Part shown: piece after piece, positions 1 through 51,863 of the stretch
How positions within the stretch are numbered: position 1 is the first letter of the stretch
Layout of the letters: each line of letters begins with the position of its first letter
Assembly: GCF_965218915.1 (NCBI RefSeq)
Contig: NZ_OZ244711.1
Span: 8,529 to 72,528, forward strand
DNA: 64,000 bases
Source of the DNA: Novosphingopyxis sp.
Lineage (GTDB): Bacteria > Pseudomonadota > Alphaproteobacteria > Sphingomonadales > Sphingomonadaceae
Direction: 5' to 3'
Made by a program: the position numbers and the translations under genes
The notes under the pieces: model-generated
What the model was told of the DNA's origin: nothing
The model's input: only the letters and a program-made list of their open reading frames with translations
Databases searched by the model: none

Positions 1-373
1 CCCCGGCCAGAACCGAGGAGTGGGCGAATTCCTCCTTCGTCAGGCCGAGCAAGGTGCGGAATACGAGAAGCGTGCCGGGGTACCGGCTGATGGCATCGAC
101 CAGATCCGCTTCCGCTACCCGCGTAAATCCGGCTGTCAGCCGATCCGCCGCCTCGTAGGCTTGGAAAAAATGCGCAGGTTCATAGAACGGCGCTTCGTGT
201 ATGTAGGCGAAATCGGGAGCCAGATGCGGCATGTACAATGCCCGAGCGATGGCCGCGTAGATGGTGCCATGCTCTCCCGTGCCGTGCCGTTGCGGGACGA
301 GCCTGATCTGATGAATCCGCTTCGCCCAGGTGTCCGCTTCGAGAATGGCCGAGATCGTGCTGTCGATCGTCAC
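1..373 (-). CDS. hypothetical protein, N-terminal part only (runs off window). Possible functional partner of the upstream methyltransferase.
   Basis: Open minus-strand frame from GTG at 373 to the window edge (VTIDSTISAILEADTWAKRIHQIRLVPQRHGTGEHG...). GTGA start/stop overlap with the methyltransferase stop at 376-378. Absent from the ORF track because it is truncated. No recognisable motif. Confidence 0.35.
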   Translation of the reverse strand, partial: MTIDSTISAILEADTWAKRIHQIRLVPQRHGTGEHGTIYAAIARALYMPHLAPDFAYIHEAPFYEPAHFFQAYEAADRLTAGFTRVAEADLVDAISRYPGTLLVFRTLLGLTKEEFAHSSVLAG

Positions 374-375
374 GA

Positions 376-1338
376 TCAGCCCAGCCCGGCATTGACCAGT
401 TGTCCCGGAATATCGTCGGCCACATCCGCGGCGATCCGTCGCAGCGCGTCTTCGACAAACCGTTCATGGATTTCGAATCCGCCGGCAAGACGGCCGAGCC
501 GTCGGGCGACGACGATCGTCGTCGCCCCGCCCGCGAAGGGATCGATGACGATCCCCCCCTTTGGGGTCGCTGCCTTAATGAAGAATTCAGCGAGCCCTTC
601 CGGCATCGCGGCGGTATGCGCGACACCTCGATGCTGATTGTAGGTCTGCGAGACGCTGACGACATTGCCAGGGTCCGCGCCGCCGAGCAGGTACGTCTTG
701 GTCCGGTCGCGGCCGAAGCCGGCCTCGGTGCTACGGCGGCCGGCCGTGTCCCGCTTGCGTCGCGCGATCTCGGCTTCATCTGCCTTGTATGGAACCCGGA
801 TGGCGTCGAGATCAAAATAGGGCTTGGGCCCGCGTGTGAAGTGGTAGACGTATTCAAAACTGTCTTTCGTGCGCGGACCGAACTTGCCCGGCACCCCATT
901 GGGTTTCGCCCATATGTATGTCTCGATCCAGCGCCATCCCATGTTCTGTAGGGCGAGAACCAGGTGATAGACGTAAGGGTGCCGCTGACCCTTCAAAGGC
1001 CCGTCTTTGGCAACCCTGTTTTTGATGTTGAGGATTAGGCTGCCGCTTGGTTTCGCTGCCTCATACATGCTGCGGGCGAAGGGCAGGAACCACTCGACAT
1101 ACCTGTCCGGGTGTATGCGGCTATACGCTCGCGCATCGGCGTAGGGCGGGCTCGTGAAAAAGAGATCGACGCTCTCACGTGCCAACTGTTGGAGTAGAAG
1201 TTCCGCATCGCCATGCAAGACGCCCTCGGCGAGGCTTCTGCGCAAGATGTCGGTGCCTCTCCCTCCGGTGACGATCGAGCCTTGATCGACCAGATCGCCG
1301 GCATCGCGCACTAGGTGCAGCTTGGGCGTTCTCGGCAT
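376..1338 (-). CDS. site-specific DNA methyltransferase, N4/N6 family, beta-class motif order
   Basis: 320-aa ORF. Catalytic motif TSPPY (DLFFTSPPYADARAY) lies N-terminal to the SAM motif VIDPFAGGATTIVVARRLGR. This order is typical of the N4/N6 DNA methylase domain. Confidence 0.85.
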   Translation of the reverse strand: MPRTPKLHLVRDAGDLVDQGSIVTGGRGTDILRRSLAEGVLHGDAELLLQQLARESVDLFFTSPPYADARAYSRIHPDRYVEWFLPFARSMYEAAKPSGSLILNIKNRVAKDGPLKGQRHPYVYHLVLALQNMGWRWIETYIWAKPNGVPGKFGPRTKDSFEYVYHFTRGPKPYFDLDAIRVPYKADEAEIARRKRDTAGRRSTEAGFGRDRTKTYLLGGADPGNVVSVSQTYNQHRGVAHTAAMPEGLAEFFIKAATPKGGIVIDPFAGGATTIVVARRLGRLAGGFEIHERFVEDALRRIAADVADDIPGQLVNAGLG

Positions 1339-1528
1339 ATCCGACTATTGTCCTGCCCAAAGGGTTCGGCCCGTGTGGTTTCTCTGAATCATGAACCCCC
1401 TTCCCCATCCATCCGCTTTCGCTAGCTTACGATCCCGCGCCGCTCCTAGCGCCAAGATTGGACACCAGATTGGCGTAGCGGCGGGTGAGTCTCGTCGAGT
1501 TGCCGCTTGGCACGCGCCAAGAATGGGA

Positions 1529-1801
1529 TCAAGCCCGCCGCGGTGCCATCGCTTCCTTCGTGTCACGCTCGCGCCAGGTGCGGGCGGCCTTGGCTCGCGT
1601 CTCGGCCAGCACGGGTTCAGCCGGCACGATACGGCCCGCCGCCACGTCGGCGTCGTCCGCGTCAAACATGGCCTCAAGCTCGACCTGAGTCGGCATGGGT
1701 GGCTCGTCCGTCTTATGATCCTCGGGGGTATAGTCGCGTCGTAAGCGTCCGGCCGGGACCGCGGGTTTGGTTGAGGCTGCGAGGCGCCTTTCTGGGGTCA
1801 C
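1529..1801 (-). CDS. small hypothetical protein (acidic C-terminal half with an antitoxin-like D-x2-AGR-x5-V segment)
   Basis: 90-aa ORF. DADDADVAAGRIVPAEPVLAE resembles C-terminal tails of RHH-type antitoxins. No partner ORF seen. Weak. Confidence 0.25.
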   Translation of the reverse strand: MTPERRLAASTKPAVPAGRLRRDYTPEDHKTDEPPMPTQVELEAMFDADDADVAAGRIVPAEPVLAETRAKAARTWRERDTKEAMAPRRA

Positions 1802-2145
1802 CTCACCGTATGCTCAAACTGCACGGCAAGACCCATGCACGAACGGCTTGCCTTTCGAGCGAGTTTTGAACGAAGGTTTTGCAACGGAAATCGCCAGATT
1901 TGGCGTGGGTGGCGGTCTGCCGTCCACATATCCACGTTTGTGAAAGGCCCTAATTTCCCGGCCTTTGCCGCTTATATATTAGCGTGCGATTGCGAGCGCA
2001 CGGTGAGGTGACCTCATTTACTGGACGGCGACCCGCGCTACACTTGGTCGGCCAGGAAGCGCGGCGAGTGGAGGCCGCCGATCGGCCGCGTCCCGTCCGG
2101 TCTTTCCGGTGCCGGGCCCGAGAGGGAGAGGGAGGCGGCGGTCGC

Positions 2146-2193
2146 CGTGACGGAGTGAGGGTCGAGAGAGGGTCTCCCGGCCGATCCGTCGCG
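2146..2193 (+). promoter_or_regulatory. leader hairpin CGTGACGG...CCGTCGCG abutting the Shine-Dalgarno of the DUF932 gene
   Basis: Arms at 2146-2153 and 2186-2193 pair (7 Watson-Crick pairs plus 1 G:U). GGAGA and the ATG follow 10 nt after the 3' arm. The same arms and spacing recur at 3479-3524. Confidence 0.4.
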
Positions 2194-2203
2194 GAGATGA
2201 CCG

Positions 2204-3400
2204 ATGACTCAGATCGACGTGCTGGACCGTACGCAGGGCGTGACCGGCAGCTACAAGGTGGACGTGACACGGGGAGAGCGGATCGGGCGGGTGTCGTCCG
2301 AGTGGTTCTCCCGGCCTGACGACGAACGCTACCTGTCGCTGACGGCGCTGCACGACGCGGTGCGCGCCCGGGCCGATCGCGCCACCGCGCGCACCGTCGA
2401 GAGCCGGGCCTTGCGGGTGGGAGCGAGCCGGGACGATGCCGAGCGGCTGACGCTGACCGTGCCCGGCCGGGAGGCGCCGATCGCGCCGACGAACTGGTCG
2501 TTCGGGCAGATGTGCAGCCTGGTGGGCGCGCCGGCGAGCTACCTGCGCCAGCTCCCGGCGCCGCTCGCCGGCATCAACCTGCAGCATGGGCTGCTGTCGC
2601 ATCGGGCCGAGCTGGTGAAGACCTTGGAAGCCGACGACGGCCGGGTCGAACTACGCGCGGTGACCGGGCCGGATTACGGCCGCATCTGGGACCACGAGCT
2701 GGTCGCGGCCGTCATGCGCATTGCCGGCGACGGCGTGGGCGACACGCGCTGGAAGGTGCCGGGCCTGCTGGACTGGTCGACGATGACCCACAACCCGTTC
2801 GTGGAGGTCACCAAGGACACCACGACGCTGTATGCCAGCGACCGCGACGTCTTCCTGTTCCTGGTGGACGATACCCACCCGATCGAGGCCGGGCGGCTGC
2901 CGAACGGCGATCCTGATCTCTACTTCCGCGGCTTTTACTGCTGGAATTCGGAGGTCGGCTCGAAGACGCTGGGCATCGCCAGCTTCTTTCTGCGGGCGGT
3001 GTGCATGAACCGGAACATCTGGGGCGCGGAGGGCTTCGAGGAGATCGCCATCCGGCACAGCAAGTTCGCCGCGCACCGGTTCGCGCACCAAGCCGCTCCG
3101 GCGCTGGCGCGGTTTGCCGACAGTTCGCCCGCCGCCTTCGTCAGCGGCGTCCGCGCCGCGCGTGAGCAGGTGGTGGCGCGCGACGACGAGGACCGGGAGA
3201 GCTTCCTGCGCCGGCGCGGGTTCAGCAAGCCGGAGACCGAGAAGATCATCGGCACCGTGCTGAAGGAGGAGGGGCGGCCGCCGGAGAGCGTGTTCGACTT
3301 CGTGCAGGGCATTACCGCGCTGGCCCGCAGCAAGACCCAGCAGGACGCCCGGCTCGAGCTGGAAGGCCGCGCCGCCAAGCTGATGGCCGCCGTCGCGTAG
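2204..3400 (+). CDS. DUF932 domain-containing protein (plasmid/ICE backbone family)
   Basis: 398-aa ORF. The sequence (..RVSSEWFSRPDDERYLSLTALHDAV.., ..FFLRAVCMNRNIWGAEGF..) and its position directly upstream of a large ParB-like gene match the DUF932 family as I recall it. Confidence 0.75.
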   Translation: MTQIDVLDRTQGVTGSYKVDVTRGERIGRVSSEWFSRPDDERYLSLTALHDAVRARADRATARTVESRALRVGASRDDAERLTLTVPGREAPIAPTNWSFGQMCSLVGAPASYLRQLPAPLAGINLQHGLLSHRAELVKTLEADDGRVELRAVTGPDYGRIWDHELVAAVMRIAGDGVGDTRWKVPGLLDWSTMTHNPFVEVTKDTTTLYASDRDVFLFLVDDTHPIEAGRLPNGDPDLYFRGFYCWNSEVGSKTLGIASFFLRAVCMNRNIWGAEGFEEIAIRHSKFAAHRFAHQAAPALARFADSSPAAFVSGVRAAREQVVARDDEDRESFLRRRGFSKPETEKIIGTVLKEEGRPPESVFDFVQGITALARSKTQQDARLELEGRAAKLMAAVA

Positions 3401-3478
3401 CAAGCCGTTCTTCCCTCCCACTCGCCCCCGGTCCTGCGGTCCGTTTCTCCCGAAGAGGGAGAGAGGGGCCGCAGGCCT

Positions 3479-3524
3479 CGTGACGGATTTGGGGAGGAGG
3501 AGAGGCTTCCTCCCAGCCGTCGCG
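3479..3524 (+). promoter_or_regulatory. leader hairpin CGTGACGG...CCGTCGCG abutting the Shine-Dalgarno of the ParB-like gene
   Basis: Arms at 3479-3486 and 3517-3524, with an inner hairpin GGGAGGA/TCCTCCC. GGAGA and the ATG at 3535 lie 10 nt after the 3' arm. Paralogous to 2146-2193. Confidence 0.4.
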
Positions 3525-3534
3525 GAGAACGGAC

Positions 3535-5655
3535 ATGGCTCAGGTTTCCCCCTCGAAGATCGCGCTCAGCGCCTCGCGCGACATCCCCTTCAACAAGCTG
3601 CTGCTCAGTGCCTGCAACGTGCGCCGGATCAAGGCGGGCGTGTCGATCGAGCAACTCGCCGACGACATCGCCCGACGCACGCTGCTGCAATCCATTACCG
3701 TGCGCCCCGTGCTGGACGCCGACGGCAACGAGACCGGCATGTATGAGATCCCAGCCGGCGGGCGGCGCTTTCGAGCGCTGGAGCTGCTGGTCAAGCAGAA
3801 GCGCCTGGCCAAGACGGCGCCGATCCCGTGCGTGATCCGCACCGGCGGCATCGCCGAGGAGGACAGCCTGGCCGAGAACGTGCAGCGCGCGCCGTTGCAT
3901 CCGCTGGATCAGTTCCGCGCCTTCCTGGCGCTGCGCGAGAAGGGCCAGTCCGAGGAGGAGATCGCCGCCGCGTTCTTCGTCAGCTTCGCCGTGGTCAAGC
4001 AGCGGCTGCGGCTCGCTTCGGTGTCGCCGAAGCTGCTGGACGTCTACGCCGAGGACGGCATAACGCTGGACCAGCTGATGGCCTTCACCGTCTCGGGGGA
4101 TTGGGAACGGCAGGAGCAGGTCTGGGAGCGGCTGCAATCCTCCTACAGCAAGGAGCCGTATGTGATCCGTCGCCAGCTGACCGAGGGTGCGGTGCGCGCG
4201 TCGGACAAGCGGGCCCGGTTCATCGGCGAGGCGTACGAGGCGGAAGGGGGCAGCGTGCTGCGCGACCTGTTCCAGGGCGACGACGGTGGCTGGCTGCAGG
4301 ACGTGGCGCTGGTAGAGCGGCTGGTGGCCGAGCAGCTCGCGCGCGAGGCGGAGACCATCCGAGCCGAGGGCTGGAAGTGGATCGAGGTCGCGCCCGACTT
4401 CCCGTATGGGCACAGCTTCGGCCTGCGCCAGCTCCGGGGCGAGGAGCAGCCACTGACCGCGGAGCAGGAGGTCGAGCGGGAGGCGCTGCAGGCCGAATAC
4501 GACCGGCTTGAGGAGGAACACGCCGGCCCCGAGGATCTACCGGAGGAGGTCGATCGCCGCCTGGGCGAGATTGAGGCGGCGTTGGCCGCGTTCGAGGACC
4601 TGCCGGTCAGCTTCGACCCGGCCGAGGTCGCGCGGGCCGGCGCCTTCGTCAGCATCGGCAGTGAGGGCCGGCTCCGGGTGGACCGCGGTTACGTGCGGCC
4701 CGAGGACGAGCTGCCCGTCGCGCAAGAGCCGGAGATCAACGGCGAGGACGGCGGGGAATCTGGCGGGAGCGCTTGTGGTGAAGACGACGGATCGGTTCCA
4801 GCCGTGGCGATGCGGGCCAGCATGGACGGTCAGGCCGTACAGGCTGGTTCGGAGGCCGCGGCGGAGCCGGAGGAAGAGGACGGCATCAAGCCGCTGCCCG
4901 ACCGGCTGCTGACGGAGCTGACGGCGCATCGAACGCTCGCGCTGCGGTTTGCGCTGGGCGATCGGCCGGAGATCGCGTTCCTGGCGGCGCTGCACGCGCT
5001 CTGCCTCAAGCTGTTCTACCACTACGCGCTGGACTCCTGCCTGGAGCTCGACGTGAAGAGCGTCGCGTTCACCGCGCAGGCGCCGGGCCTGAACGACACC
5101 GGCACGGCCCGAATGCTGACCTACCGGCACCAGTTCTGGCTGGCGTCGCTGCCGCGGCAGCCCGAGGCGCTGTGGGACGCGCTGTCCCTTCTGGATCATC
5201 TGCAGCGGCAGTCGTTGTTCGCGCACTGCGTCGGGCTGAGCGTGAACGCCGTGCACGAGGCATACAACCGGCGTCCGCGGGCGTTGGCGCATTCCGATGT
5301 GCTGGCCAGCGCGGTCGAGCTCGACATGGTTACCGCAGGCTGGACGCCGACGGTGGACAGCTACCTGGGCCGGGTCACCAAGGCGCGCATTCTGCAGGCG
5401 GTGCGGGAAGCGCGAGGCGAGGAGGCGGCCGAGCGTATCGCCCATCTCAAGAAGGGCGAGATGGCCGAGCAGGCGGAACAGCTGCTGGCCGGGTCTAGCT
5501 GGCTGCCCGAGAAGCTCCGCACGCAAGGCCAGGTGTTCACGGCCGCGGCGGATGTCCAAGCGCCGCGCACCGAACCCGAGACTGGGCTGCCGGACGACCC
5601 GGAAGAGCACGAGGCCGACATGCCCACCGGGGCGTGGTCGGTCGCGGCTGAATAG
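3535..5655 (+). CDS. ParB N-terminal (ParB/Srx-like nuclease) domain protein, 706 aa
   Basis: N-terminus carries the ParB box (YEIPAGGRRFRALELL) and an HTH-like region, followed by a long acidic/low-complexity C-terminal extension. Large ParB-like proteins of this kind are typical of conjugative elements. Confidence 0.85.
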   Translation: MAQVSPSKIALSASRDIPFNKLLLSACNVRRIKAGVSIEQLADDIARRTLLQSITVRPVLDADGNETGMYEIPAGGRRFRALELLVKQKRLAKTAPIPCVIRTGGIAEEDSLAENVQRAPLHPLDQFRAFLALREKGQSEEEIAAAFFVSFAVVKQRLRLASVSPKLLDVYAEDGITLDQLMAFTVSGDWERQEQVWERLQSSYSKEPYVIRRQLTEGAVRASDKRARFIGEAYEAEGGSVLRDLFQGDDGGWLQDVALVERLVAEQLAREAETIRAEGWKWIEVAPDFPYGHSFGLRQLRGEEQPLTAEQEVEREALQAEYDRLEEEHAGPEDLPEEVDRRLGEIEAALAAFEDLPVSFDPAEVARAGAFVSIGSEGRLRVDRGYVRPEDELPVAQEPEINGEDGGESGGSACGEDDGSVPAVAMRASMDGQAVQAGSEAAAEPEEEDGIKPLPDRLLTELTAHRTLALRFALGDRPEIAFLAALHALCLKLFYHYALDSCLELDVKSVAFTAQAPGLNDTGTARMLTYRHQFWLASLPRQPEALWDALSLLDHLQRQSLFAHCVGLSVNAVHEAYNRRPRALAHSDVLASAVELDMVTAGWTPTVDSYLGRVTKARILQAVREARGEEAAERIAHLKKGEMAEQAEQLLAGSSWLPEKLRTQGQVFTAAADVQAPRTEPETGLPDDPEEHEADMPTGAWSVAAE

Positions 5656-5682
5656 CCCGGCTCCTTCCCTTCCTCCTGCCCA

Positions 5683-5752
5683 GGGCTCGCCCGCTCCGAC
5701 CACCCCACGAGGCACTGCCTCGCGGGACCGGGGCGGCGAGCCCTTTTTCTTT
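5683..5752 (+). terminator. intrinsic terminator/attenuator-like compound hairpin after the ParB-like gene
   Basis: GGGCTCGCC (5683-5691) pairs with GGCGAGCCC (5735-5743) and is followed by TTTTTCTTT. An inner hairpin CGAGGCA/TGCCTCG is present. Confidence 0.5.
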
Positions 5753-5763
5753 CGGAGGCCATC

Positions 5764-6828
5764 ATGGCGGACACGGTGTCCGACCTGGCGCGCCGCCTCG
5801 CCGAGAACGCCGAGGCGGTGTGCCGCTACTATCTGTTCAACGGCCGTCGCCAAGGTGGCTACTGGCTCGTCGGCGACGTCCACAACGCGCCCGGGCGCAG
5901 TCTTTATGTGCGCCTACAGGGTCCCAACTCTGGCAAGGGGGCGGCGGGTAAGTGGACCGACGCCGCTGACGGTGGGCATGGCGATTTGCTCGACCTCATC
6001 GGGGCGGTGCGGGGCCTGCAAGGGGGCGATCTCCTGGACGAGGCGCACCGCTTTCTCGGGCTGGTGCGGACGCAACCGGAACCACCTCCACCCGCAACGG
6101 CAGGGTCGGCAGAAGCCGCACGGCGGCTGTTCGCGATGGGACGCCCGATCGGGGGCACGCTGGCTGACACCTACTTGCGCGGGCGTGGGATCACCGACCT
6201 GGGCGAGGCGAACGCGCTCCGCTTTCACGCGCGCTGCTGGTACCGGTCAGACCCTGGCGCCCCCGACGGCATGCGCGACACCTGGCCCGCTTTGCTCGCC
6301 GCCGTCACCGATGAGGATGACCGGATTACCGGCTTGCAGCGCACCTATCTCGACCCGTCCGGCCGCACGAAGGCGCCGGTCGCGACGCCGCGGCGGGCGA
6401 TGGGTCACCTGCTCGGCAACGCGGTCCGGTTGGGGTCGCCCGGCGACGGCGTGGTACGCGATGTTATGGCCGCCGGCGAGGGTATCGAGACGGTGCTGTC
6501 CTTGCGATGCGCCCTGCCCTGCCTGCCGCTCGCCGCCGCACTCTCGGCCGGACACTTCGCCGCCCTGCTGTTTCCTCCGGGGCTGCGCCGGCTCTATCTC
6601 ATCCGCGACAACGACCCGGCCGGGCACTGGGCGGCGGAGAAGCTGATGGCTCGGGCGCAGGCGGCCGGGATCGAGACGCTGGTACTGGCACCCACAAGCG
6701 GCGACTGGAACGACGACCTGCTTGAGCTCGGACCCGATGCAGTCGCGACGGCACTGCGGCTTCAGCTCGCCCCAGACGACGTGACCCGGTTCTTGAGGAA
6801 GCCGGGACGAGGCGGACGGATACGGTAA
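5764..6828 (+). CDS. Toprim domain-containing protein (primase-like N-terminal region plus Toprim)
   Basis: 354 aa. Toprim signatures AGEGIETVLSL (conserved Glu) and YLIRDNDPAGHWAAEKL (DxD). Follows the ParB-like gene as in many ICE/plasmid backbones. Confidence 0.8.
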   Translation: MADTVSDLARRLAENAEAVCRYYLFNGRRQGGYWLVGDVHNAPGRSLYVRLQGPNSGKGAAGKWTDAADGGHGDLLDLIGAVRGLQGGDLLDEAHRFLGLVRTQPEPPPPATAGSAEAARRLFAMGRPIGGTLADTYLRGRGITDLGEANALRFHARCWYRSDPGAPDGMRDTWPALLAAVTDEDDRITGLQRTYLDPSGRTKAPVATPRRAMGHLLGNAVRLGSPGDGVVRDVMAAGEGIETVLSLRCALPCLPLAAALSAGHFAALLFPPGLRRLYLIRDNDPAGHWAAEKLMARAQAAGIETLVLAPTSGDWNDDLLELGPDAVATALRLQLAPDDVTRFLRKPGRGGRIR

Positions 6829-6939
6829 CGTGGGTGCGGCATGCGGTCGGCGGGGATGGGTTACCGTGAGCCATCCGGCCGGAGAGCCGCGCCCACGGCC
6901 TTCTGAGAGGGCGATCGGACCGGAGGCGGCCCGGGCCGG

Positions 6940-7134
6940 CAACGGCTAGGGCAACTTTCTTCCCCTGCCGGCTGCGCCGTCATTCCTCGCGAGGCAAGAA
7001 AGCCGCCCCACGCCGTCCTCCGCTCCGCTGCGGCCGCTCGCGCTGCGCGCAGCGGTGCAAGCCCGGTCCGCCTCCGGTCTTCGACGCCTGCGAAGGCCGC
7101 GATGGGCGCGGCCGGTAGCCGGAGACAGACCACG
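6940..7134 (+). repeat. structured intergenic element, copy E (3' two-thirds)
   Basis: Shares the stem GGGCAACTTTCTT (6949-6961) / AAGAAAGCCGCCC (6996-7008), the TCCTCCGCT box and the GAAGGCCGCGATGGGCGCGG box with the copies at 9417, 39268, 40228 and 44869. Confidence 0.6.
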
Positions 7135-8073
7135 ATGACCCACCCTACCGACCGCGAACATGAGCCCCACCACGCCGCATCCTCGACCGCCTCTCTCCTC
7201 ACCGAACTCCAGCTCTTCGGGCACCGACCCTTCCAGGACGAGCCGGACAGCCGCCCCCTCCCCGACCCGCACCAAGTCGGCACCGCACTGGCCGACATCT
7301 TCGACGCCCTGGTGTCTACCCTCACCGACACGCGCCTCGAACCCGACCTCGAAGATCTGCTCTGGTCCACCGTCAACCTGTTCCACCGCGCCGGCGACCG
7401 GATCGAACGCGAACTCGATGGCAACGAGCAGGCGCAGCGCAGGAGCCAGAAGGAACAGGACGGCTCCGAAATCCGATCGGTCGAGCTGGAACGGCTCCTG
7501 GCGGAGGGCACCACGCTGATCGAACGCCGCAACGCCTTCGAGGCCATGCGCGACGGGGCGGCCGAGCTGTTCGAGACCCACACCGGCGCCACCTGGCGCC
7601 CACGCGCCGGGTCGATGGTGAACCACCGCGCGTTGACATCGGCTGTCATCGACAGCCGCGACTTCCTGCAAGCCAAGCGCCGGGCCGAGACCGAAGTGAT
7701 GCTGCCGCCGGGTCCCAAGGTCGCCTTTGCCGGTGGTTACGAGTGCAACGACCACGCAGCGATCTGGGCCGCACTCGACCGGGTGCATGCGAAGCATCCC
7801 GGCATGGTGCTGCTGCACGGGGGATCGCCCAAGGGCGCCGAACGCATCGCCGCGTGCTGGGCCGACACCCGCAAGGTGCCGCAGATCGCCTTCAAGCCGG
7901 ACTTCATCCGGCATAAGAACGCCGCCCCATTCAAGCGCAACGACCAGCTACTTAATGTCCTACCGATCGGGGTCGTGGTGTTCCCCGGCTCCGGCATCTC
8001 CGACAACCTGGCCGACAAGGCCAAGAAGCTCGGCATCCCCGTGCTCGACTATCGCAAAGGCGGGGGCGGATAG
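7135..8073 (+). CDS. DUF2493 / SLOG-family (DprA/LOG-like Rossmann) domain protein
   Basis: C-terminal 130 aa (VAFAGGYECNDHAAIWAALDRVHAKHPGMVLLHGGSPKGAERIAACWA...VVVFPGSGISDNLADKAKKLGIPV) fits DUF2493. Start moved from 7102 to ATG 7135 (GGAGA SD at 7121-7125) because the 7102 ATG lies in the conserved non-coding box GCGATGGGCGCGG. Confidence 0.8.
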   Translation: MTHPTDREHEPHHAASSTASLLTELQLFGHRPFQDEPDSRPLPDPHQVGTALADIFDALVSTLTDTRLEPDLEDLLWSTVNLFHRAGDRIERELDGNEQAQRRSQKEQDGSEIRSVELERLLAEGTTLIERRNAFEAMRDGAAELFETHTGATWRPRAGSMVNHRALTSAVIDSRDFLQAKRRAETEVMLPPGPKVAFAGGYECNDHAAIWAALDRVHAKHPGMVLLHGGSPKGAERIAACWADTRKVPQIAFKPDFIRHKNAAPFKRNDQLLNVLPIGVVVFPGSGISDNLADKAKKLGIPVLDYRKGGGG

Positions 8074-8077
8074 CCCC

Positions 8078-8443
8078 TCACCCAACTTTCGTCGGCACCG
8101 TCCGGAGGTGGCGCGCGCCGGTCTTGGATCGCTCGACGAGGCAGATCGACCAGCCCAGGGCAACCGCGCCGGTCGGCGCCGGGCCGATCCCGAAGATGCT
8201 CTCCGTCAGCCAGACTTCGTCTGGACCGGTGCGGCACCCTTCACACGAGAGCCGAAGCGCGACGTGAGCGAGCGTGCAGTCGGCAAGGCGCCGATCGCCT
8301 GCCATGTGACCAATCGCGATCACCCGTGCCGCACCGCAGGTGCAGCGGACGGCCAGGTAGTGATCCCGCATCGTTCGGACCAGGGAGGCCAGGGCCAGCG
8401 CGCGGTCGTAGGGCGCTGGCTGCGTCACTGAGCCAGGTCCCAC
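8078..8443 (-). CDS. small Cys-rich hypothetical protein
   Basis: 121-aa ORF with RCTCG...SCEGC (CxC...CxxC). A candidate SOS box lies about 70 bp upstream. Confidence 0.4.
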   Translation of the reverse strand: MGPGSVTQPAPYDRALALASLVRTMRDHYLAVRCTCGAARVIAIGHMAGDRRLADCTLAHVALRLSCEGCRTGPDEVWLTESIFGIGPAPTGAVALGWSICLVERSKTGARHLRTVPTKVG

Positions 8444-8510
8444 TTGCGACGGCTGCTGACGCGCTGCAAGGCAACTGACATCTCTCTCCTACTCGGCTAG
8501 GCACCAATAG

Positions 8511-8525
8511 GAACATTTAGAGAAC
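8511..8525. promoter_or_regulatory. candidate alphaproteobacterial LexA (SOS) box GAAC-N7-GAAC
   Basis: GAACATTTAGAGAAC read directly. It lies between the divergent small ORF (start 8443) and the SRAP gene (start 8838). Confidence 0.35.
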
Positions 8526-8606
8526 TTCTGGGTTGCGGGGAAGCGCCGGCCTATGCTCGCCTAATCCGGGCAGCAAGCAGCTGGCCACCTCGCCCTCGCT
8601 TGCGGG

Positions 8607-8817
8607 CCCCAGTCACCTCATAGGCCCAAAAACGGCCAACCTCATTCTGTTGCGCAAACCTTCGTTTGAACGACATAAATGGCCCTGAGTAGGAACAAGG
8701 GCTTACGTGTTGCGCTATGCTGTTGCTCTTGGTGATGCCATTGCAACAGAGTTCTGCGACATGTTTGTTATTCGTTCTGCGAGTTGGCCGTTTTTCAACC
8801 TATGAGGTGACTGGGCC
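8607..8817. repeat. MITE-like unit: ~34-bp imperfect terminal inverted repeats flanking a 143-bp AT-richer core
   Basis: The left arm 8607-8640 (CCCCAGTCACCTCATAGGCCCAAAAACGGCCAAC) is the reverse complement of the right arm 8784-8817 (GTTGGCCGTTTTTCAACCTATGAGGTGACTGGGC), apart from a 4-nt patch and 1 indel. Confidence 0.4.
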
Positions 8818-8837
8818 TTGCGGAAAGGTTCGTCCAA

Positions 8838-9416
8838 TTGTGCAATGACTTTGGCAATCGCATTCCGTACGACGACTACGTCGAGGCATTCAGCCAGACA
8901 CGACTGCCGCTGAAGGTGCCGGCCGCGATCCCGAACTTCGAGCCGCGGGACGACATCTGGCCGACCGACACGGCGCCGGTCCTGCGCTTGGCCGAGGGCG
9001 GCGTCGAGCTCGTGCAACTACGCTGGGGCTTCGCGCCAGGTCGGCCCAAGGCGGGGCCGGTGATCAATTTCCGCTCGGAGGGACGCCGGTTTTCGAATGG
9101 ACGCTGTATTATTCCTGCATCCCACTTCTTCGAGTTCAGCGGGGCTAAGGCGCCGAAAAGCAAGTGGCGGTTTACCAAGACGGGCGAGGATTGGTTCTGC
9201 TTCGCCGGGCTATGGCGTCCGGAGACGGACGATGTGCTCGAGGCCTTTACGCTGCTCACGACGGCGCCAGGGCCTGACGTTGCCCCGATCCACGACCGTC
9301 AGATGGTGGTGCTGGAGCGCGCCGATTGGCTGGCCTGGCTCGAGCTATCGCGCCCGGAAGCGGAACTGCTGAAGCCCCTGCCCGCTGGCAGCCTGCACGT
9401 CGAACAGGTGCGGTAA
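8838..9416 (+). CDS. SOS response-associated peptidase (SRAP; YedK/HMCES family)
   Basis: 192 aa. A TTG start gives Met-Cys2-Asn (catalytic N-terminal Cys). LRWGFAP, INFRSE, RCIIPASHFFEF and CFAGLW are typical SRAP blocks. Confidence 0.9.
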   Translation: MCNDFGNRIPYDDYVEAFSQTRLPLKVPAAIPNFEPRDDIWPTDTAPVLRLAEGGVELVQLRWGFAPGRPKAGPVINFRSEGRRFSNGRCIIPASHFFEFSGAKAPKSKWRFTKTGEDWFCFAGLWRPETDDVLEAFTLLTTAPGPDVAPIHDRQMVVLERADWLAWLELSRPEAELLKPLPAGSLHVEQVR

Positions 9417-9684
9417 GCCGATGGGTCACCAAGCCCTCTCCTCGGTCAGGACCCGCCCACGCCTGCCTCCTCATGGCCTGATCTGGCCGCAGGACGGCTG
9501 ACGCCTCGATCGCCTCTGCCGCAATGGCGGCCGGGCAACTTTCTTCCCCTGAGCTTCGCCCGCCCGCCCGCCATCTTCGCTCTGCTCCGGCTCGTGCCGA
9601 GTGCGTTGTCGATCGCCTGCGGCCTGTCGAATCGCCATCGGAGGCCGCGATGGGCGCGGTCCCGAGACAACAGGAGAGAGCACC
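9417..9684 (+). repeat. structured intergenic element, copy A (3' stem arm lost; RBS plus ATG retained)
   Basis: Near-identical to 40228-40524, including the 35-nt invariant box (9478-9512) and CAGGAGAGAGCACCATG. The DUF736 ORF expected after the ATG at 9685 is replaced by unrelated DNA. Confidence 0.7.
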
Positions 9685-9687
9685 ATG

Positions 9688-9854
9688 ACCGCCCCGCCCC
9701 GTGTGGCAAAAGCGCGTGCGGTCGCGAGGCCGATGCCAGATGCGGCCCTGGTGACCAGGACGCGAGCGGCGGTGGCGGGCTGGCTGGCGCTCAAGCGGTG
9801 CTCCTCGCCGGTGTTGGTCAAAATTTGGATCGAAGCTACGGCGCTCGCCGTCAC
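9688..9854 (-). pseudogene. short-chain dehydrogenase (SDR) 5' fragment truncated at the element junction
   Basis: The minus-strand translation ...ARVLVTRAASGIGLATARAFATRGGAV shows a Rossmann TGxxxGIG-type motif and stops being SDR-like exactly where element copy A begins. Divergent from the GntR gene. Confidence 0.45.
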
Positions 9855-9898
9855 GTGGTCGATGCCCGGCAGACAAGCCGCACCGAACCGGAGTAGGT

Positions 9899-10582
9899 TT
9901 GCTCATGCTCGCCGTTTCGGATTCAAGCACCGCCGCCGTCCAACATCTGGAGCACAATCCGCTCTACGAGCGCGTGTACCGGGAGCTCCGCCGCATGCTG
10001 ATGGAGGGCGCCTTCGCCCCGGGCGCGGAGCTGACGCTGCGCTCGCTGGCCGAGGGATTCGGTACCAGCGACATGCCGGTGCGAGACGCGGTCCGCCGCC
10101 TGATTTCGGAAGGTGCGCTGATCGGCCGCCCGAACCGGAGCCCGGTCGTGCGCCAGCTCACCCGCGTGCAATTCGAGGAGGTGCGGGACGTGCGCATGTT
10201 GATCGAGGGCGGGGCCACCGCCTCGGCGTGCGCCGCCTTATCTGCCGAGGGCTTGGCGAGGCTGCGCCAACTGCAACGTGACTTGAGCGGCGCGGAACCG
10301 TCTGATCTGGCCTTGCACCGCACCCTCAATCGGCGCTTCCACTTCACGATCTATGAGGCTTGCGCCATGCCGCTGCTGGTCTCGATGATCGAGACGCTGT
10401 GGCTGCAGGTCGGCCCGCTGTTCCGCAGCCTTTCCCTCCCGCTGCTCCGGCGAGACCTGCCGGACTATCATTGCCTGGCCGTAGACGCCCTGGCCGACCG
10501 CGACGCCGGAGCCGCTGCCGCCGCGATCCGCAACGATATCAGCGCCTCTGCAGCCGTCGTCCTGGCCAGCTCAGCGATCTGA
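9899..10582 (+). CDS. GntR family transcriptional regulator (FadR/FCD-type C-terminal domain)
   Basis: LYERVYRELRRMLMEGAFAPGAELTLRSLAEGFGTSDMPVRDAVRRLISEGAL is a GntR winged HTH. The helical C-terminal domain follows. The start may instead be ATG 9905. Confidence 0.85.
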   Translation: MLMLAVSDSSTAAVQHLEHNPLYERVYRELRRMLMEGAFAPGAELTLRSLAEGFGTSDMPVRDAVRRLISEGALIGRPNRSPVVRQLTRVQFEEVRDVRMLIEGGATASACAALSAEGLARLRQLQRDLSGAEPSDLALHRTLNRRFHFTIYEACAMPLLVSMIETLWLQVGPLFRSLSLPLLRRDLPDYHCLAVDALADRDAGAAAAAIRNDISASAAVVLASSAI

Positions 10583-40227: not shown

Positions 40228-40524
40228 GCCGACACGGGGTCACCAAGCCCTCCCCTGCCGGTCAGGACACGCCCACGCTGCCTCCTCATGGCCTGATCTG
40301 GCCGCAGGACGGCTGACGCCTCGATCGACTTTGCCGCAATGGCGGCCGGGCAACTTTCTTCCCCTGCGCTGGCGCGCATTCCTCGCGATCCAAGAAAGCC
40401 GCCCGGCCGCCATCCTCCGCTCTGCTTCGGCCCACAAGCGGGTGCGTCGTCGATCGCCTGCGGCCTGCAGATCGCCATCGGAGGCCGCGATGGGCGCGGT
40501 CCCGAGACAACAGGAGAGAGCACC
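40228..40524 (+). repeat. structured intergenic element, copy C (most complete; reference copy)
   Basis: Invariant box 40293-40327, stem 40341-40360 / 40392-40411, second hairpin GCGGCCT/AGGCCGC, and RBS CAGGAGAGAGCACC before ATG 40525. Confidence 0.7.
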
Positions 40525-40836
40525 ATGGCGACCATCGGCACCTTCACCCGCACCAACGGCAGCTTCACCGGCGCGGTCAAGACCCTCAGCATTAACGCCA
40601 AGACCACGATCAAGCCCGCCGACAAGGCCAACGATCGCGCGCCCGACTACCGCATCCTCACGGGGTCTGCCGTGGAGTTCGGGGCCGCCTGGAAAAAGAC
40701 CTCCGGCGAGGGTCGCGAGTATCTCTCGGTCAAGCTCGACGACCCCAGCTTCCCCGCCCCGATCTACGCCACCTTGGTCGAAGCAGACGAAGCCGGCACG
40801 TTCAACCTGATCTGGTCCCGCCGCAACGGCGACTGA
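40525..40836 (+). CDS. DUF736 domain-containing protein
   Basis: 103 aa. [44 protein letters not shown]...[22 protein letters not shown] fits the DUF736 family. Start set at the ATG behind a good RBS. Confidence 0.85.
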   Translation: MATIGTFTRTNGSFTGAVKTLSINAKTTIKPADKANDRAPDYRILTGSAVEFGAAWKKTSGEGREYLSVKLDDPSFPAPIYATLVEADEAGTFNLIWSRRNGD

Positions 40837-44868: not shown

Positions 44869-45129
44869 GGACACGCCCATGCCGCCTCTTGATGGGCTGA
44901 TCTGGCCGCAGGACGGCTGACGCCTCGATCGCCTCTGCCGCAATGGCGGCCGGGCGGCTATTTTCCGCCGGCGCGAGCGCCTTTGCATCGCGAAACAAAA
45001 TAGCCGCCCGGCCGCCATCCTCCGCTGCGCTATGGCCTGCACGCAGGTGCGGCGTCGATCGCCTGCGGCCTGTCGATCGCCATCGAGGCCGCGATAGGCG
45101 TGGTCCCGAGGGACAGACAGGAGAGCACC
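44869..45129 (+). repeat. structured intergenic element, copy D (perfect 20-bp stem)
   Basis: Invariant box 44897-44931. Stem GGCGGCCGGGCGGCTATTTT (44945-44964) / AAAATAGCCGCCCGGCCGCC (44997-45016). RBS CAGGAGAGCACC before ATG 45130. Confidence 0.7.
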
Positions 45130-45444
45130 ATGGCGACTATCGGGACCTTCACCCGCTCGGCCGGCGGCACCTTCACCGGCGCGGTCAAGACCCTCAGCAT
45201 CAACGCCAAGACCACGATCAAGCCGGCCGACAAGGCCAGCGACAAGGCGCCCGACTACCGCGTCTTCGCCGGGTCTAGCGTGGAGTTCGGCGCCGCTTGG
45301 AAGAAGACCTCCGGCGAGGGCCGCGCTTATCTCTCGGTCAAGCTCGACGATCCCAGCTTCCCGGCTCCGATCTATGCCACCCTGGTCGAGGGCGAGGAAA
45401 CCGGCAGCTACAGCTTGATCTGGTCCCGCCGCAACGGGGACTAA
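45130..45444 (+). CDS. DUF736 domain-containing protein (paralog 2)
   Basis: 104 aa. [45 protein letters not shown]... is about 80% identical to the 40525-40836 product by eye. Confidence 0.85.
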
Positions 45445-51724: not shown

Positions 51725-51836
51725 GGTGTCGGACTTGTGTCGGATCAACTGCCGGACAAGTGTCGGACTAACGTCGCACCAAAGTGGTGGGCAATGGGTT
51801 ATAGACCAAGGCACCCTAGCGGGTGCTTGTTGCGCC
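51725..51836 (-). promoter_or_regulatory. candidate oriT: three phased 9-bp direct repeats plus an IR with a MOBF-like nic motif on the minus strand
   Basis: GTGTCGGAC/T at 51725, 51736 and 51759. IR GCACCC-TAGC-GGGTGC at 51811-51826. The minus strand reads GGGTGCCTTGGTCT/ATAACCCATTG, compared with the R388 nic region GGTGCGTATTGTCT/ATAGCCCAG (from memory). Confidence 0.5.
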
Positions 51837-51863
51837 TGCTCGCGCGCCTTCCTACAGTGAGTC

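What the first reader, a model, noticed from the sequence alone, without database searches (positions are those of the whole stretch)
2204..9416. Uncharacterised plus-strand 'ssDNA-handling' module: DUF932 - giant ParB-like - Toprim - SLOG/DUF2493 - SRAP
Five consecutive same-strand backbone genes encode domains that all plausibly act on incoming or single-stranded DNA.
- A ParB/Srx-fold N-domain on a 706-aa protein that is far larger than partition ParBs. A separate parA/RHH pair exists at 46382.
- A Toprim (primase/topoisomerase-type) protein.
- A SLOG-fold protein of the DprA/LOG superfamily.
- An SRAP peptidase, a family known to crosslink to abasic sites in ssDNA.
- DUF932, of unknown function.

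None has a defined role in conjugation. The grouping, the shared leader structures and the predicted transfer polarity (see the oriT finding) fit an early-expressed establishment or anti-defence programme that has not been worked out experimentally for this backbone type, as far as I know.
Basis: inference. Interest (0 to 1): 0.7.

Follow-up and report, generated by a model that had tools for sequence, protein, structure and literature searches.

The report
Conserved leading-side plasmid establishment gene module
This gene cluster is the alphaproteobacterial counterpart of the "first-to-enter" establishment region of plasmid F, with a relative of the host-reprogramming protein HerB, a primase-like protein, three proteins of unknown function and a previously undescribed conserved DNA/RNA hairpin in front of two of them.

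Summary
The five + strand ORFs and their domains are real. DUF932 is below Pfam's cut-off but is confirmed by transitive homology and fold.

Synteny in about 85 related alphaproteobacterial loci shows that the conserved core is DUF932, a giant ParB-like protein, Toprim, SLOG and DUF736. SRAP is a lineage-specific addition. In this window DUF736 (40.5 and 45.1 kb) has been displaced by about 30 kb of inserted cargo.

- **ParB-like protein:** a full-length homologue of F-plasmid YfjB/HerB. A July 2026 preprint shows HerB to be a zygotically induced, CTP-binding, host-transcription-reprogramming leading-region protein.
- **Toprim protein:** resembles the phage P4 alpha-type primase, without a helicase.
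- **DUF932:** extremely conserved, with no relative among solved structures.
- **oriT and polarity:** an R388-like nic site lies at 51.8 kb on the minus strand. This puts the module on the leading side with the transferred strand as template, as in F and R388, but 44-50 kb from nic.
- **"Shared leader structures":** two hairpins are MITE-like insertions. A third is a genuinely conserved, covarying element of about 105 nt found about 60 nt upstream of SLOG and DUF736 in 127 of 135 instances. It is absent from Rfam.

Best reading: an early-establishment module. Whether the element is an ssDNA promoter, a priming site or an RNA leader is open.

The parts
2204..3400 (+). DUF932-family protein, 398 aa, function unknown; the most conserved gene of the module
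   Evidence: Pfam DUF932 is sub-threshold. phrog_1362 matches at 3.5e-44. More than 7600 homologues were found, and the top 120 are at least 85% identical. The protein is 42% identical to the S-ESS1 DUF932 protein. The AF2 model has pLDDT 77.8. It matches BFVD DUF932 models at E 2e-17, and nothing in PDB is significant. Against L084 there are 46 synonymous and 10 non-synonymous codon differences.
3535..5655 (+). HerB-like giant ParB-family protein, 706 aa, with CTP-binding N-domain, HTH and two extra C-terminal domains
   Evidence: BLASTP against F YfjB/HerB gives 28% identity over residues 17-658 versus 38-629, E 2e-46. Box II GGRRFRA and the Box III ENV motif align with the HerB CTP motifs (PMC13370423 section 6). 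N-terminal similarity to Spo0J/ParB/Noc structures. phrog_7783 matches at 8e-82.
5764..6828 (+). Primase-like Toprim protein, 354 aa: degenerate Zn-ribbon-like N-terminus, DUF7146 and Toprim_3; no helicase domain
   Evidence: Pfam. phrog_510 'DNA primase' matches at 2.4e-30 over residues 16-321. NCBIfam gives weak matches to the TraI_TIGR C-terminal region and to PRK07078. The EGIET and DNDPAG Toprim motifs are visible in the sequence.
6897..7097 (+). Conserved long hairpin filling the Toprim-SLOG spacer. Its core is the 'R1' element at 6932-7035. The 5' GGCCTTC pairs with the 3' GAAGGCC just before the ATG at 7102.
   Evidence: Fold z-scores are -5.1 and -5.0. Across 78 loci the median z is -3.3. 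Covariation: 20 pairs show changes on both sides, against 11.1 in shuffles (0 of 500 reach it), and the score is 0.237 against 0.077. The R1 model scores 81.8 bits here. No Rfam hit.
7102..8073 (+). SLOG/YAcAr (DUF2493) protein with a conserved helical N-terminal half; the likely true start is 7135 (312 aa)
   Evidence: Pfam YAcAr 3.8e-29. Homologues are mostly 312 aa. The N-terminal half is conserved. The AF2 model is weak, pLDDT 65: long helices followed by an alpha/beta domain. The C-domain matches Moco-carrier (LOG-like) folds with probability 1.0 and TM 0.54-0.56.
8838..9416 (+). SRAP (YedK/HMCES family) protein, 192 aa, TTG start; a lineage-specific addition to the module
   Evidence: Pfam SRAP 6.5e-27. 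YedK structures match at 1.5e-5. Cys2, the INFRSE Asn, the FFEF Glu and the IHDR His are visible in the sequence. The gene is present in L084, L090 and L091 but absent at this position in the 80 anchored loci.
9514..9592 (+). Truncated R1 copy marking the left edge of about 30 kb of inserted cargo
   Evidence: R1 scores 17.5 bits here. The full copy is present at the same place in L084. The stretch from the SRAP 3' end to the leader is duplicated at 40093-40432.
40329..40836 (+). R1 element (40329-40432) and DUF736 gene a (40525-40836), preceded by a SRAP 3' fragment (40093-40227)
   Evidence: R1 65.4 bits. ORF translations. 82% nucleotide identity to the L090 leader plus DUF736.
44933..45444 (+). 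R1 element (44933-45037) and DUF736 gene b (45130-45444)
   Evidence: R1 93.7 bits. Pfam DUF736 3.9e-35.
51775..51850 (-). Predicted oriT nic region: an inverted repeat followed by GTCT/ATAACCCA; nic predicted between 51803 and 51802 on the minus strand
   Evidence: Alignment with the R388 nic region. The R388 sequence and its orientation were checked. The motif occurs once in the window against 0.12 expected. It lies directly upstream of a 95-aa ORF and the TrwC-family relaxase at 52164-55985.

Best explanation
The region is the conserved establishment module of an alphaproteobacterial MOBF/VirB-type conjugative plasmid. It is functionally analogous to the F and R388 leading region.

**Entry (inferred from an R388-like nic site).** DNA enters the recipient from a nic site at about 51.8 kb, minus strand first, running towards lower coordinates. 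Every module gene therefore has the incoming strand as its template.

**Proposed protein roles.**
- The 706-aa ParB-like protein is a HerB orthologue. By homology it would bind CTP, dimerise through its C-terminal domain, load onto recipient DNA and transiently reprogramme host transcription to offset the cost of plasmid acquisition.
- The Toprim protein is a P4-alpha-type primase module that would prime complementary-strand synthesis (inferred).
- DUF932, SLOG/YAcAr and DUF736 are co-inherited partners of unknown biochemistry. SLOG probably binds a nucleotide-like ligand.
- SRAP, added in this lineage, would shield abasic sites in the incoming ssDNA (inferred from the family).

**Shared leader.** SLOG and DUF736 carry a homologous, covarying structured element of about 105 nt, about 60 nt upstream of their start codons. 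I favour that it acts in the single-stranded transferred strand as an Frpo-like promoter and/or priming signal that couples their expression to DNA entry. This step is the least certain.
For: **Synteny.** In the 80 loci anchored on Toprim, plus annotated plasmids, DUF932/HerB-like, Toprim, SLOG and DUF736 lie on one strand in almost every locus.

**HerB homology.** Similarity covers all four domains and the CTP motifs are conserved. HerB biology comes from PMC13370423, which reports homologues in Alphaproteobacteria and on MOBF plasmids.

**Parallels with known leading regions.** The F leading region carries DUF932 next to oriT, plus a methylase, ssb and psiB. In R388 the nic motif is on the strand that makes the leading genes (ssb, the ArdC-like gene) point towards oriT. 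The window has the same motif and geometry.

**Other elements.** In a Shinella plasmid with a Ti-type Dtr, the module also points towards traG-traD-traC|oriT|traA and includes an antirestriction gene.

**Primase-type matches** for the Toprim protein.

**Structured leaders.** They are found upstream of SLOG, DUF736 and DUF932, but not upstream of HerB or Toprim, nor inside genes. Covariation is shown. R1 is specific: 134 of 135 hits are in gene orientation, and 127 of 135 lie 23-100 nt upstream of SLOG or DUF736.

**Which strand folds.** The minus (transferred) strand folds better in 57-61 of 74 cases. On the + strand, A.C mismatches outnumber G.U pairs 36 to 15.

**Literature precedent.** Large, sequence-unrelated stem-loops upstream of early operons are ssDNA promoters in F and pESBL (PMC12672017).

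**Selection.** Comparison with L084 indicates purifying selection: 46 synonymous to 10 non-synonymous codon differences in DUF932 and 33 to 8 in SLOG.
Against: - The module is 44-50 kb from the predicted nic, or about 13-19 kb if the cargo is discounted. It is therefore not among the first genes to enter.
- The nic site is predicted only by similarity to R388, and the relaxase is only 26-29% identical to TrwC.
- No -35/-10 pair could be found in the R1 stem (and manual reading). R1 has no similarity to anything in the F or R388 loci.
- In the first alignment the long stem showed G.U pairs on the + strand, for example column pair 75:292 with 11 G.U. The outer stem would also sequester a likely Shine-Dalgarno sequence. 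Both observations fit an mRNA leader instead.
- The HTH contact residues of HerB are not conserved position by position.
- DUF932 and the SLOG N-domain gave no functional fold match.
- No expression data exist for any alphaproteobacterial member.
Confidence: 0.6

Rival explanations
1. The module works mainly in the established plasmid or the donor, as replication, DNA-processing and maintenance functions: the primase for vegetative or transfer replication, and the ParB-like protein for plasmid positioning or silencing. R1 would be an ordinary mRNA leader (5' UTR) that controls translation of SLOG and DUF736, for example by sequestering the Shine-Dalgarno sequence or by binding a regulator.
For: - R1 sits a fixed distance of about 60 nt from the start codons.
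- In the SLOG copy, the outer stem pairs GGCCTTC with the GAAGGCC just before the ATG.
- G.U pairs are seen on the + strand at some stem positions.
- No promoter hexamers were found in the stem.
- The module is far from nic in this plasmid.
- DUF736 is a universal ICE backbone gene with no link to entry so far (PMC8627217).
Against: - The ParB-like protein is not next to a ParA. The ParA at 46382 has its own RHH partner.
- Its full-length homologue HerB acts only in the earliest post-transfer stages (PMC13370423).
- Strand tests over 123 distinct R1 copies lean towards the minus strand.
- The orientation towards oriT is kept in elements with unrelated Dtr systems.
Confidence: 0.25
2. The module is chiefly an anti-defence island. 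DUF932, SLOG and DUF736 would inhibit recipient restriction, CRISPR or nucleotide-signalling defences. SRAP and the primase would be accessory.
For: - Leading regions are enriched in anti-defence genes encoded so that the T-strand is the template (PMC11541004).
- An antirestriction gene sits between the HerB-like gene and DUF932 in the Shinella plasmid.
- Variable defence, RM and TA genes flank the module in relatives.
- From my own knowledge of the SLOG literature, SLOG domains bind nucleotide-derived ligands used in conflict systems.
Against: - No homology to any known anti-defence protein was found.
- DUF932 is 85-98% identical across many genera. That is unusual for arms-race proteins, which tend to diversify.
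- PADLOC gave no hits, but it covers defence proteins, not anti-defence proteins.
- HerB's shown role is host reprogramming, not anti-defence.
Confidence: 0.1
3. The grouping is incidental: unrelated backbone and cargo genes that happen to be adjacent in this plasmid.
For: SRAP is indeed a lineage-specific addition. The SLOG-SRAP spacer is a variable slot, and MITE-like elements and cargo have inserted around the module.
Against: Four of the five genes, plus DUF736, keep their order and strand across Bradyrhizobium, Acetobacteraceae, sphingomonads, Rhodobacteraceae and Rhizobiaceae. The non-coding spacer is also conserved.
Confidence: 0.03

Closest known systems
F-plasmid leading region, in particular YfjB/HerB (PMC13370423) and its Frpo ssDNA promoters
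   Same: - A HerB homologue with all four domains and the CTP motifs.
- A DUF932 gene and a DNA methylase nearby.
- Genes oriented so that the transferred strand is the template.
- Large stem-loops upstream of some operons.
   Different: - No ssb, psiB, ardA/klcA or hok in the module. It carries instead a primase-like Toprim protein, SLOG/YAcAr, DUF736 and SRAP.
- The window's DUF932 protein (398 aa) shows no direct BLAST similarity to F's 273-aa DUF932 protein.
- The R1 hairpin is unrelated in sequence to anything in the F locus and lacks recognisable -35/-10 boxes.
- The distance to nic is far larger.
R388 (IncW, MOBF, VirB-type) oriT and leading region
   Same: - Same relaxase family (TrwC) and same type of T4SS.
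- The nic core GTCT/ATA(A/G)CCCA follows an inverted repeat.
- Leading genes point towards oriT.
   Different: - The R388 leading genes are stbABC, ssb, ardC and kfrA-like. None of the five module families is annotated there.
- The relaxase is only 26-29% identical in its two conserved blocks.
Conserved backbone of alphaproteobacterial ICEs and plasmids (ICEMlSymR7A-type, Ti-type)
   Same: - DUF736 (msi110) is universal and often duplicated (PMC8627217).
- The string ParB-like, DUF932, toprim, DUF2493, DUF736 is annotated in Shinella and Methylocystis plasmids.
   Different: - Here the module is coupled to a MOBF relaxase and a VirB T4SS rather than to RlxS/Trb or TraA.
- HerB-like and Toprim are directly adjacent, with no strawberry-notch-like gene between them.
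- SRAP has been added, and 30 kb of cargo splits the module.
Conjugative primases (RP4 TraC, ColIb-P9 Sog) and the phage P4 alpha primase
   Same: A Toprim catalytic domain carried by a mobile element. The presumed role is priming on transferred or incoming ssDNA. The domain order resembles the P4 alpha N-terminal half.
   Different: No CHC2 or CxxC zinc finger is visible, there is no helicase domain, and no relative has a solved structure. Activity and transfer into recipients are untested.

Membership tests
HerB (YfjB) family of ParB-like leading-region proteins | Full-length similarity covering domains D1-D4 (the preprint required at least 80% of each) | tested here: met
   BLASTP E 2e-46. 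HerB residues 38-629 are aligned, covering about 80% of D1, all of D2 and D3, and about 98% of D4 (criteria).
HerB (YfjB) family of ParB-like leading-region proteins | CTP-binding motifs Box II (GxxRxxA) and Box III (ENxxR, with the Mg-binding Glu) | tested here: met
   GGRRFRA (residues 75-81) and AENVQR (E114) align with HerB G91-A97 and E130.
HerB (YfjB) family of ParB-like leading-region proteins | HTH with DNA-contacting R168/R172/K175 | tested here: inconclusive
   The helix aligns, but the basic residues are shifted by one position (K155, R157, R159).
HerB (YfjB) family of ParB-like leading-region proteins | Zygotic induction, nucleoid foci and host transcriptional reprogramming | not testable with these tools
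   Needs mating experiments, ChIP-seq and RNA-seq.
Canonical partition ParB | Encoded next to a ParA ATPase, about 300 aa long, with parS sites | tested here: not met
   The protein is 706 aa and has no adjacent ParA. The only ParA (46382-47047) is paired with an RHH protein.
DUF932 (PF06067 / TIGR03299) | Score above the Pfam gathering threshold | tested here: not met
   16.7 bits against a cut-off of 23. No NCBIfam hit.
DUF932 (PF06067 / TIGR03299) | Homology to bona fide members, and the same fold | tested here: met
   42% identity over 93% of its length to the S-ESS1 protein, whose cluster carries PF06067. Foldseek finds BFVD DUF932/TIGR03299 models at E 2e-17, TM about 0.6.
DnaG/P4-alpha-type primase | Toprim domain with the catalytic Glu and the DxD motif | tested here: met
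   Toprim_3 1.4e-21. EGIET and DNDPAG are visible in the sequence. phrog_510 'DNA primase' 2.4e-30.
DnaG/P4-alpha-type primase | Zinc-binding domain with Cys/His ligands | tested here: not met
   No CxxC or CHC2 pattern occurs in residues 1-110, and Pfam reports no zinc-ribbon domain.
SLOG superfamily, YAcAr family | Pfam model above threshold and a Rossmann-like LOG/DprA-type fold | tested here: met
   100.7 bits against a cut-off of 28.2. The C-domain matches Moco-carrier proteins with probability 1.0, but the model has low confidence.
SRAP (YedK/HMCES) | N-terminal Cys2 nucleophile plus the conserved Asn, Glu and His | tested here: met
   The protein starts MC. INFRSE, FFEF and IHDR align with YedK. 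Pfam gives 94.9 bits.
SRAP (YedK/HMCES) | SOS (LexA) regulation | tested here: inconclusive
   GAAC-N7-GAAC lies at 8511-8525 and is conserved in L084. However, the pattern occurs 3 times in the window against 1.6 expected, and this copy lies 313 nt upstream of SRAP.
Frpo/ssi-type ssDNA promoters | Large stem-loop in the intergenic region upstream of a leading-side operon, folded in the transferred strand | tested here: met
   The strand tests lean towards the transferred strand.
Frpo/ssi-type ssDNA promoters | -35 and -10 boxes reconstituted in the stem | tested here: not met
   The consensus scan finds none in the R1 region, and manual reading of both arms finds no convincing pair. Alphaproteobacterial promoters may differ from the consensus used.
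Frpo/ssi-type ssDNA promoters | Sequence similarity to the known Frpo/ssi classes | tested here: not met
   The R1 model has no hit in the F leading region or the R388 locus. No Rfam family matches.
Frpo/ssi-type ssDNA promoters | Active on ssDNA and silent on dsDNA | not testable with these tools
   Needs in vitro transcription or 5' RACE in transconjugants.

The most novel reading that the evidence does not exclude
R1 is a new class of conjugation-entry signal that works in the transferred single strand. It would be a hairpin that is both an ssDNA promoter for SLOG and DUF736 and the recognition or priming site of the element's own zinc-finger-less Toprim primase, whose gene it directly follows. 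DNA entry, complementary-strand synthesis and expression of two universally conserved but uncharacterised ICE/plasmid proteins would then be mechanistically coupled across Alphaproteobacteria.
Probability: 0.2. Interest if true: 0.8.

Novelty: new variant of a known kind. Interest (0 to 1): 0.55.

Why it matters
Almost all knowledge of plasmid establishment comes from enterobacterial F, IncI and IncW plasmids. This module shows that one of their key players, HerB, sits in a different and very widely conserved gene set in the plasmids and ICEs of rhizobia, acetic acid bacteria, sphingomonads and roseobacters. These are the elements that move symbiosis, catabolic and resistance traits in soil and water.

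The work gives concrete handles for experiments:
- a predicted nic site and transfer polarity;
- four conserved proteins of unknown function, DUF932 being under very strong constraint;
- a covarying non-coding element of about 105 nt that marks two of them.

If that element is an ssDNA promoter or priming site, it would extend zygotic induction beyond Enterobacteria and offer a searchable marker for leading regions in high-GC genomes.

Tried and rejected
1. **Hairpins upstream of DUF932 (1793-2016) and SRAP (8606-8817) as conserved leaders: rejected.** Both are absent from close relatives. The second has 33-nt terminal inverted repeats and a 6-bp direct repeat, so it is MITE-like. The truly conserved 175-nt DUF932 leader in this lineage does not fold better than shuffles.
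2. **Sigma-70 promoter scan of 1300-9500:** one weak hit, none in the hairpins.
3. **Rfam search of 1-10000 at E up to 1:** no hit.
4. **Foldseek of the DUF932 model against PDB:** best E 0.12 (RPA and Rad52 OB-like), not significant. PDB sequence searches for DUF932, Toprim and SLOG gave nothing useful.
5. **SLOG full-length model:** low confidence (pLDDT 65). No reading of the N-terminal helical half was possible.
6. **Direct BLAST of the window DUF932 against F's DUF932:** no similarity. The link is only transitive or structural.
7. **Co-occurrence of DUF932 and HerB-like in the same cyanophages:** they are in different phages, so there is no linkage there.
8. **LexA-box idea for SRAP:** not above chance.
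9. **Minus-strand 121-aa ORF at 8078-8443:** no family hit, ambiguous codon statistics, and not found in the other loci. Left as uncertain.
10. **PADLOC scan:** no defence-system membership.
11. **Which strand of R1 folds:** two tests lean towards the minus strand and one alignment shows + strand G.U pairs. Unresolved.


Full report
**What is there.** The window is high-GC DNA (62-70% GC) of a conjugative element. Its backbone carries:
- a ParA/RHH pair and a RepA_C protein at 46.4-48.5 kb;
- a TrwC-family relaxase at 52164-55985 (+);
- a VirD4-type coupling protein and VirB11/10/9/8 on the minus strand at 57.8-63.5 kb.

The five ORFs of the finding exist as described and show strong coding signatures. 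Pfam confirms DUF7146+Toprim_3, YAcAr/SLOG and SRAP well above threshold. ParB_N and DUF932 are below threshold. PHROGs adds a full-length match of the 706-aa protein to phrog_7783. It also places the Toprim protein in 'DNA primase' families.

**The giant ParB-like protein is a HerB homologue.** A literature search found a July 2026 preprint (PMC13370423) on F-plasmid YfjB, renamed HerB. The preprint describes it as follows:
- a leading-region protein that is zygotically induced;
- it binds CTP and forms a dimer through a novel C-terminal domain;
- it associates with the recipient chromosome and reprogrammes host transcription.

I fetched the F leading region and compared the proteins. The result is 28% identity over residues 17-658 against HerB 38-629, E 2e-46. 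This spans all four domains, and Box II (GGRRFRA) and the Box III Glu are conserved. The preprint reports homologues in Alphaproteobacteria and on MOBF plasmids. The F leading region also holds a DUF932 gene, the first gene after the SLT gene next to oriT, and a DNA methylase. The window has a methylase at 376-1338 on the minus strand.

**Is the grouping conserved?** A scan of one genome per species with the Toprim protein returned 80 loci. They come from Bradyrhizobium, Acetobacteraceae, sphingomonads, Rhodobacteraceae, Rhizobiaceae and others. tblastn of the window proteins against these loci gave the following:
- Toprim and SLOG are adjacent on one strand wherever the contig allows.
- A HerB-like gene lies upstream in most loci.
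- DUF932 lies before or after HerB in about half.
- DUF736 lies 0.7-5 kb after SLOG in most.
- SRAP appeared within 10 kb in one of these loci (L066), on the opposite strand. The same holds for the Shinella plasmid L003, which came from the plasmid search.

Annotated Methylocystis and Shinella plasmids show the same string. In Shinella it runs ParB, antirestriction, DUF932..., strawberry-notch-like, toprim, DUF2493, TA, DUF736..., traG traD traC|oriT|traA, with the module pointing towards oriT.

The closest relatives are metagenomic contigs with DUF932 97% identical or SLOG 88% identical. They do carry SRAP between SLOG and DUF736 on the same strand. In L090/L091 the order is MTase, 156 aa, UvrD, DUF932, ParB-like, Toprim, YAcAr, 173-aa membrane protein, SRAP, 58 aa, DUF736.

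In the window the SRAP 3' end plus the following leader is duplicated at 40093-40432, in front of a DUF736 gene. About 30 kb of cargo has therefore been inserted between SRAP and DUF736. The cargo includes GntR and AraC regulators, an RND pump, cytochrome o oxidase and an FdhF-like oxidoreductase.

The conserved core is thus DUF932, HerB-like, Toprim, SLOG and DUF736. SRAP is a lineage-specific addition.

**Transfer polarity.** The 600-bp region upstream of a 95-aa ORF and the relaxase contains, on the minus strand, an inverted repeat followed by GTCTATAACCCA. The R388 nic region is GCACCGAAAGGTGCGTATTGTCT/ATAGCCCA. I verified this sequence and its orientation in the R388 record. There the motif lies on the strand opposite the trw genes, and the ssb and ArdC-like leading genes point towards it. 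The two regions align, and the 12-mer is unique in the window against 0.12 expected.

By analogy, the nic lies at about 51803/51802 on the minus strand and the relaxase gene enters last. All + strand genes to the left (RepA, ParA, both DUF736 copies, SRAP, SLOG, Toprim, HerB-like, DUF932) then use the transferred strand as template. This is the geometry reported for leading-region genes (PMC11541004). The caveat is distance: 44-50 kb from nic here, or roughly 13-19 kb without the cargo.

**The individual proteins.**
- **DUF932** is remarkably conserved. More than 7600 homologues were found, and the best 120 are at least 85% identical across genera. Across the 80 loci it is 72-81% identical, where Toprim is 55-62%. 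Against L084 there are 46 synonymous and 10 non-synonymous codon differences. A decent AlphaFold model (pLDDT 77.8, pTM 0.74) matches only viral DUF932/TIGR03299 models. Nothing in the PDB is significant.
- **Toprim protein.** It has an N-terminal region typical of P4-alpha-like primases but without Cys ligands, then DUF7146 and a Toprim_3 domain with intact EGxxT and DxD motifs.
- **SLOG protein.** It has a conserved helical N-terminal half and a C-terminal domain. In a low-confidence model the latter resembles LOG-like Moco-carrier proteins.
- **SRAP.** It keeps Cys2, Asn, Glu and His.
- None of the module proteins matches PADLOC defence models.

**The 'shared leader structures'.** Three long hairpins precede DUF932, SLOG and SRAP.

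Comparison with close relatives shows that the DUF932 hairpin (1793-2016) and the SRAP hairpin (8606-8817) are insertions absent from those relatives. The SRAP hairpin has 33-nt terminal inverted repeats and a TTGCGG direct repeat. Both are therefore MITE-like elements and not leaders.

The Toprim-SLOG spacer is different.
- **Size and folding.** It is 260-370 nt long in every locus. It folds better than dinucleotide shuffles in 83% of 78 loci, with a median z of -3.3.
- **Conserved sequence.** It aligns across families with blocks such as GCAATGGC, GGCTATTTT...AAAATAGCC, TTTGCATCGCGAAG and CCATCCTCCGCT.
- **Covariation.** 97.4% of cells are paired. Twenty pairs carry compensatory changes, against 11.1 in shuffles (0 of 500 reach it). 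The score is 0.237, against 0.077 in shuffles and at most 0.087 in slid controls.

A covariance model of the core of about 105 nt, here called R1, finds 135 matches in 1.43 Mb of related loci.
- 134 matches are in the + orientation of their locus. The one minus-strand match sits beside a minus-strand DUF736 in L082, so all follow gene orientation.
- 77 lie a median 58 nt upstream of SLOG and 50 lie a median 61 nt upstream of DUF736.
- There are none in the F or R388 loci.
- The window has copies at 6932-7035, 39316-39421, 40329-40432 and 44933-45037, plus a truncated copy at 9514-9592.
- Rfam has no matching family.

In a broader survey, 220-nt windows upstream of DUF932 and DUF736 are also unusually structured (median z -3.3 and -2.9). 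Those upstream of HerB and Toprim, and those inside genes, are not. This pattern resembles what was found for pESBL and F, where every early operon is preceded by a large stem-loop that acts as an ssDNA promoter, in several sequence-unrelated classes (PMC12672017).

**Which strand folds?**
- The minus (transferred) strand is thermodynamically more stable in 57-61 of 74 spacers.
- Over 123 distinct R1 copies, A.C mismatches on the + strand (G.T wobbles on the minus strand) outnumber G.U pairs 36 to 15.
- Against this, some long-range pairs show G.U on the + strand.
- The outer stem of the SLOG copy pairs GGCCTTC with the GAAGGCC just before the ATG at 7102, which would suit an mRNA leader that hides a ribosome-binding site.
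- No -35/-10 pair could be recognised.

I therefore treat the ssDNA-promoter/priming reading as favoured but unproven.

**Synthesis.**
- **Shown:**
  - the ORFs and their domains;
  - the conserved synteny;
  - HerB homology;
  - the R388-like nic motif;
  - a conserved, covarying non-coding element tied to SLOG and DUF736;
  - the MITE-like nature of two hairpins;
  - the cargo insertion.
- **Inferred:**
  - the transfer polarity;
  - early expression;
  - HerB-like host reprogramming;
  - priming by the Toprim protein;
  - abasic-site protection by SRAP;
  - the function of R1.

The membership is different: SRAP drops out of the core and DUF736 comes in. One member now has an experimentally studied homologue. 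An 'ssDNA-handling' biochemistry is not demonstrated for any of the proteins.

Noticed in passing
window 8606-8817: A 212-bp MITE-like element with 33-nt terminal inverted repeats, flanked by a 6-bp direct repeat TTGCGG (8600-8605 and 8818-8823). It is inserted just upstream of SRAP and is absent from the otherwise about 97% identical relative L084. Its ssDNA fold has z -8.1.
   Followed up: yes
window 1793-2016: A second inverted-repeat element with 23-nt arms and a 178-nt spacer. Its termini share GTCACCTCA with the element at 8606-8817. It is absent upstream of DUF932 in L084 and L085 and is probably a related MITE.
   Followed up: partly
window 51775-51850 (minus strand): An R388-like oriT nic region: an inverted repeat followed by GTCT/ATAACCCA. 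Repeated GTGTCGGAC motifs lie just to its left (about 51725-51770) and may be accessory-protein binding sites.
   Followed up: partly
window 9290-9592 and 40093-40432: The SRAP 3' end plus the R1 leader is duplicated, with a SRAP C-terminal fragment ORF at 40093-40227. The duplication brackets about 30 kb of cargo and suggests insertion or recombination at the DUF736 leader.
   Followed up: partly
window 39316-39421: An extra R1 copy (71.9 bits) that is not followed by SLOG or DUF736. Downstream lie short ORFs, one starting MPHVIVEYSANLE, which looks like the N-terminus of a broken isomerase/tautomerase-type gene.
   Followed up: no
window 8511-8525: GAACATTTAGAGAAC, a perfect GAAC-N7-GAAC (the alphaproteobacterial LexA-box pattern), lies between a doubtful minus-strand ORF with a Cys-rich motif (8078-8443) and SRAP. 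It is invariant in L084. By count it is not above chance: 3 in the window against 1.6 expected.
   Followed up: partly
window 2204-3400 and homologues P0001-P0120: The DUF932 protein is 85-98% identical across many alphaproteobacterial genera, far more conserved than its neighbours. This suggests interaction with a highly conserved host component.
   Followed up: partly
L084 1-9712; L090 538-4679: The stretch between the start of the VirB operon and DUF932 is a variable slot. It holds a methylase in the window, MmeI-type RM plus MqsRA in L084, and MTase plus a UvrD-like helicase in L090/L091. L090 also carries a SIR2-STAND defence-like gene just after DUF736.
   Followed up: no
GenBank MT839211.1 (hits H48/H49): A 4.5-kb record labelled 'Bacteriophage sp.' from human faecal samples encodes a HerB-like protein (55% identical) and a DUF932 fragment on one strand. 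It is probably a plasmid or ICE fragment rather than phage DNA.
   Followed up: no
window 40525-40836 and 45130-45444: Two DUF736 genes lie about 4.6 kb apart, each with its own R1 leader. They bracket three minus-strand ORFs and a serine recombinase (43637-44587). The same spacing of about 4.7-5 kb between two DUF736 copies recurs in Acetobacteraceae loci.
   Followed up: no
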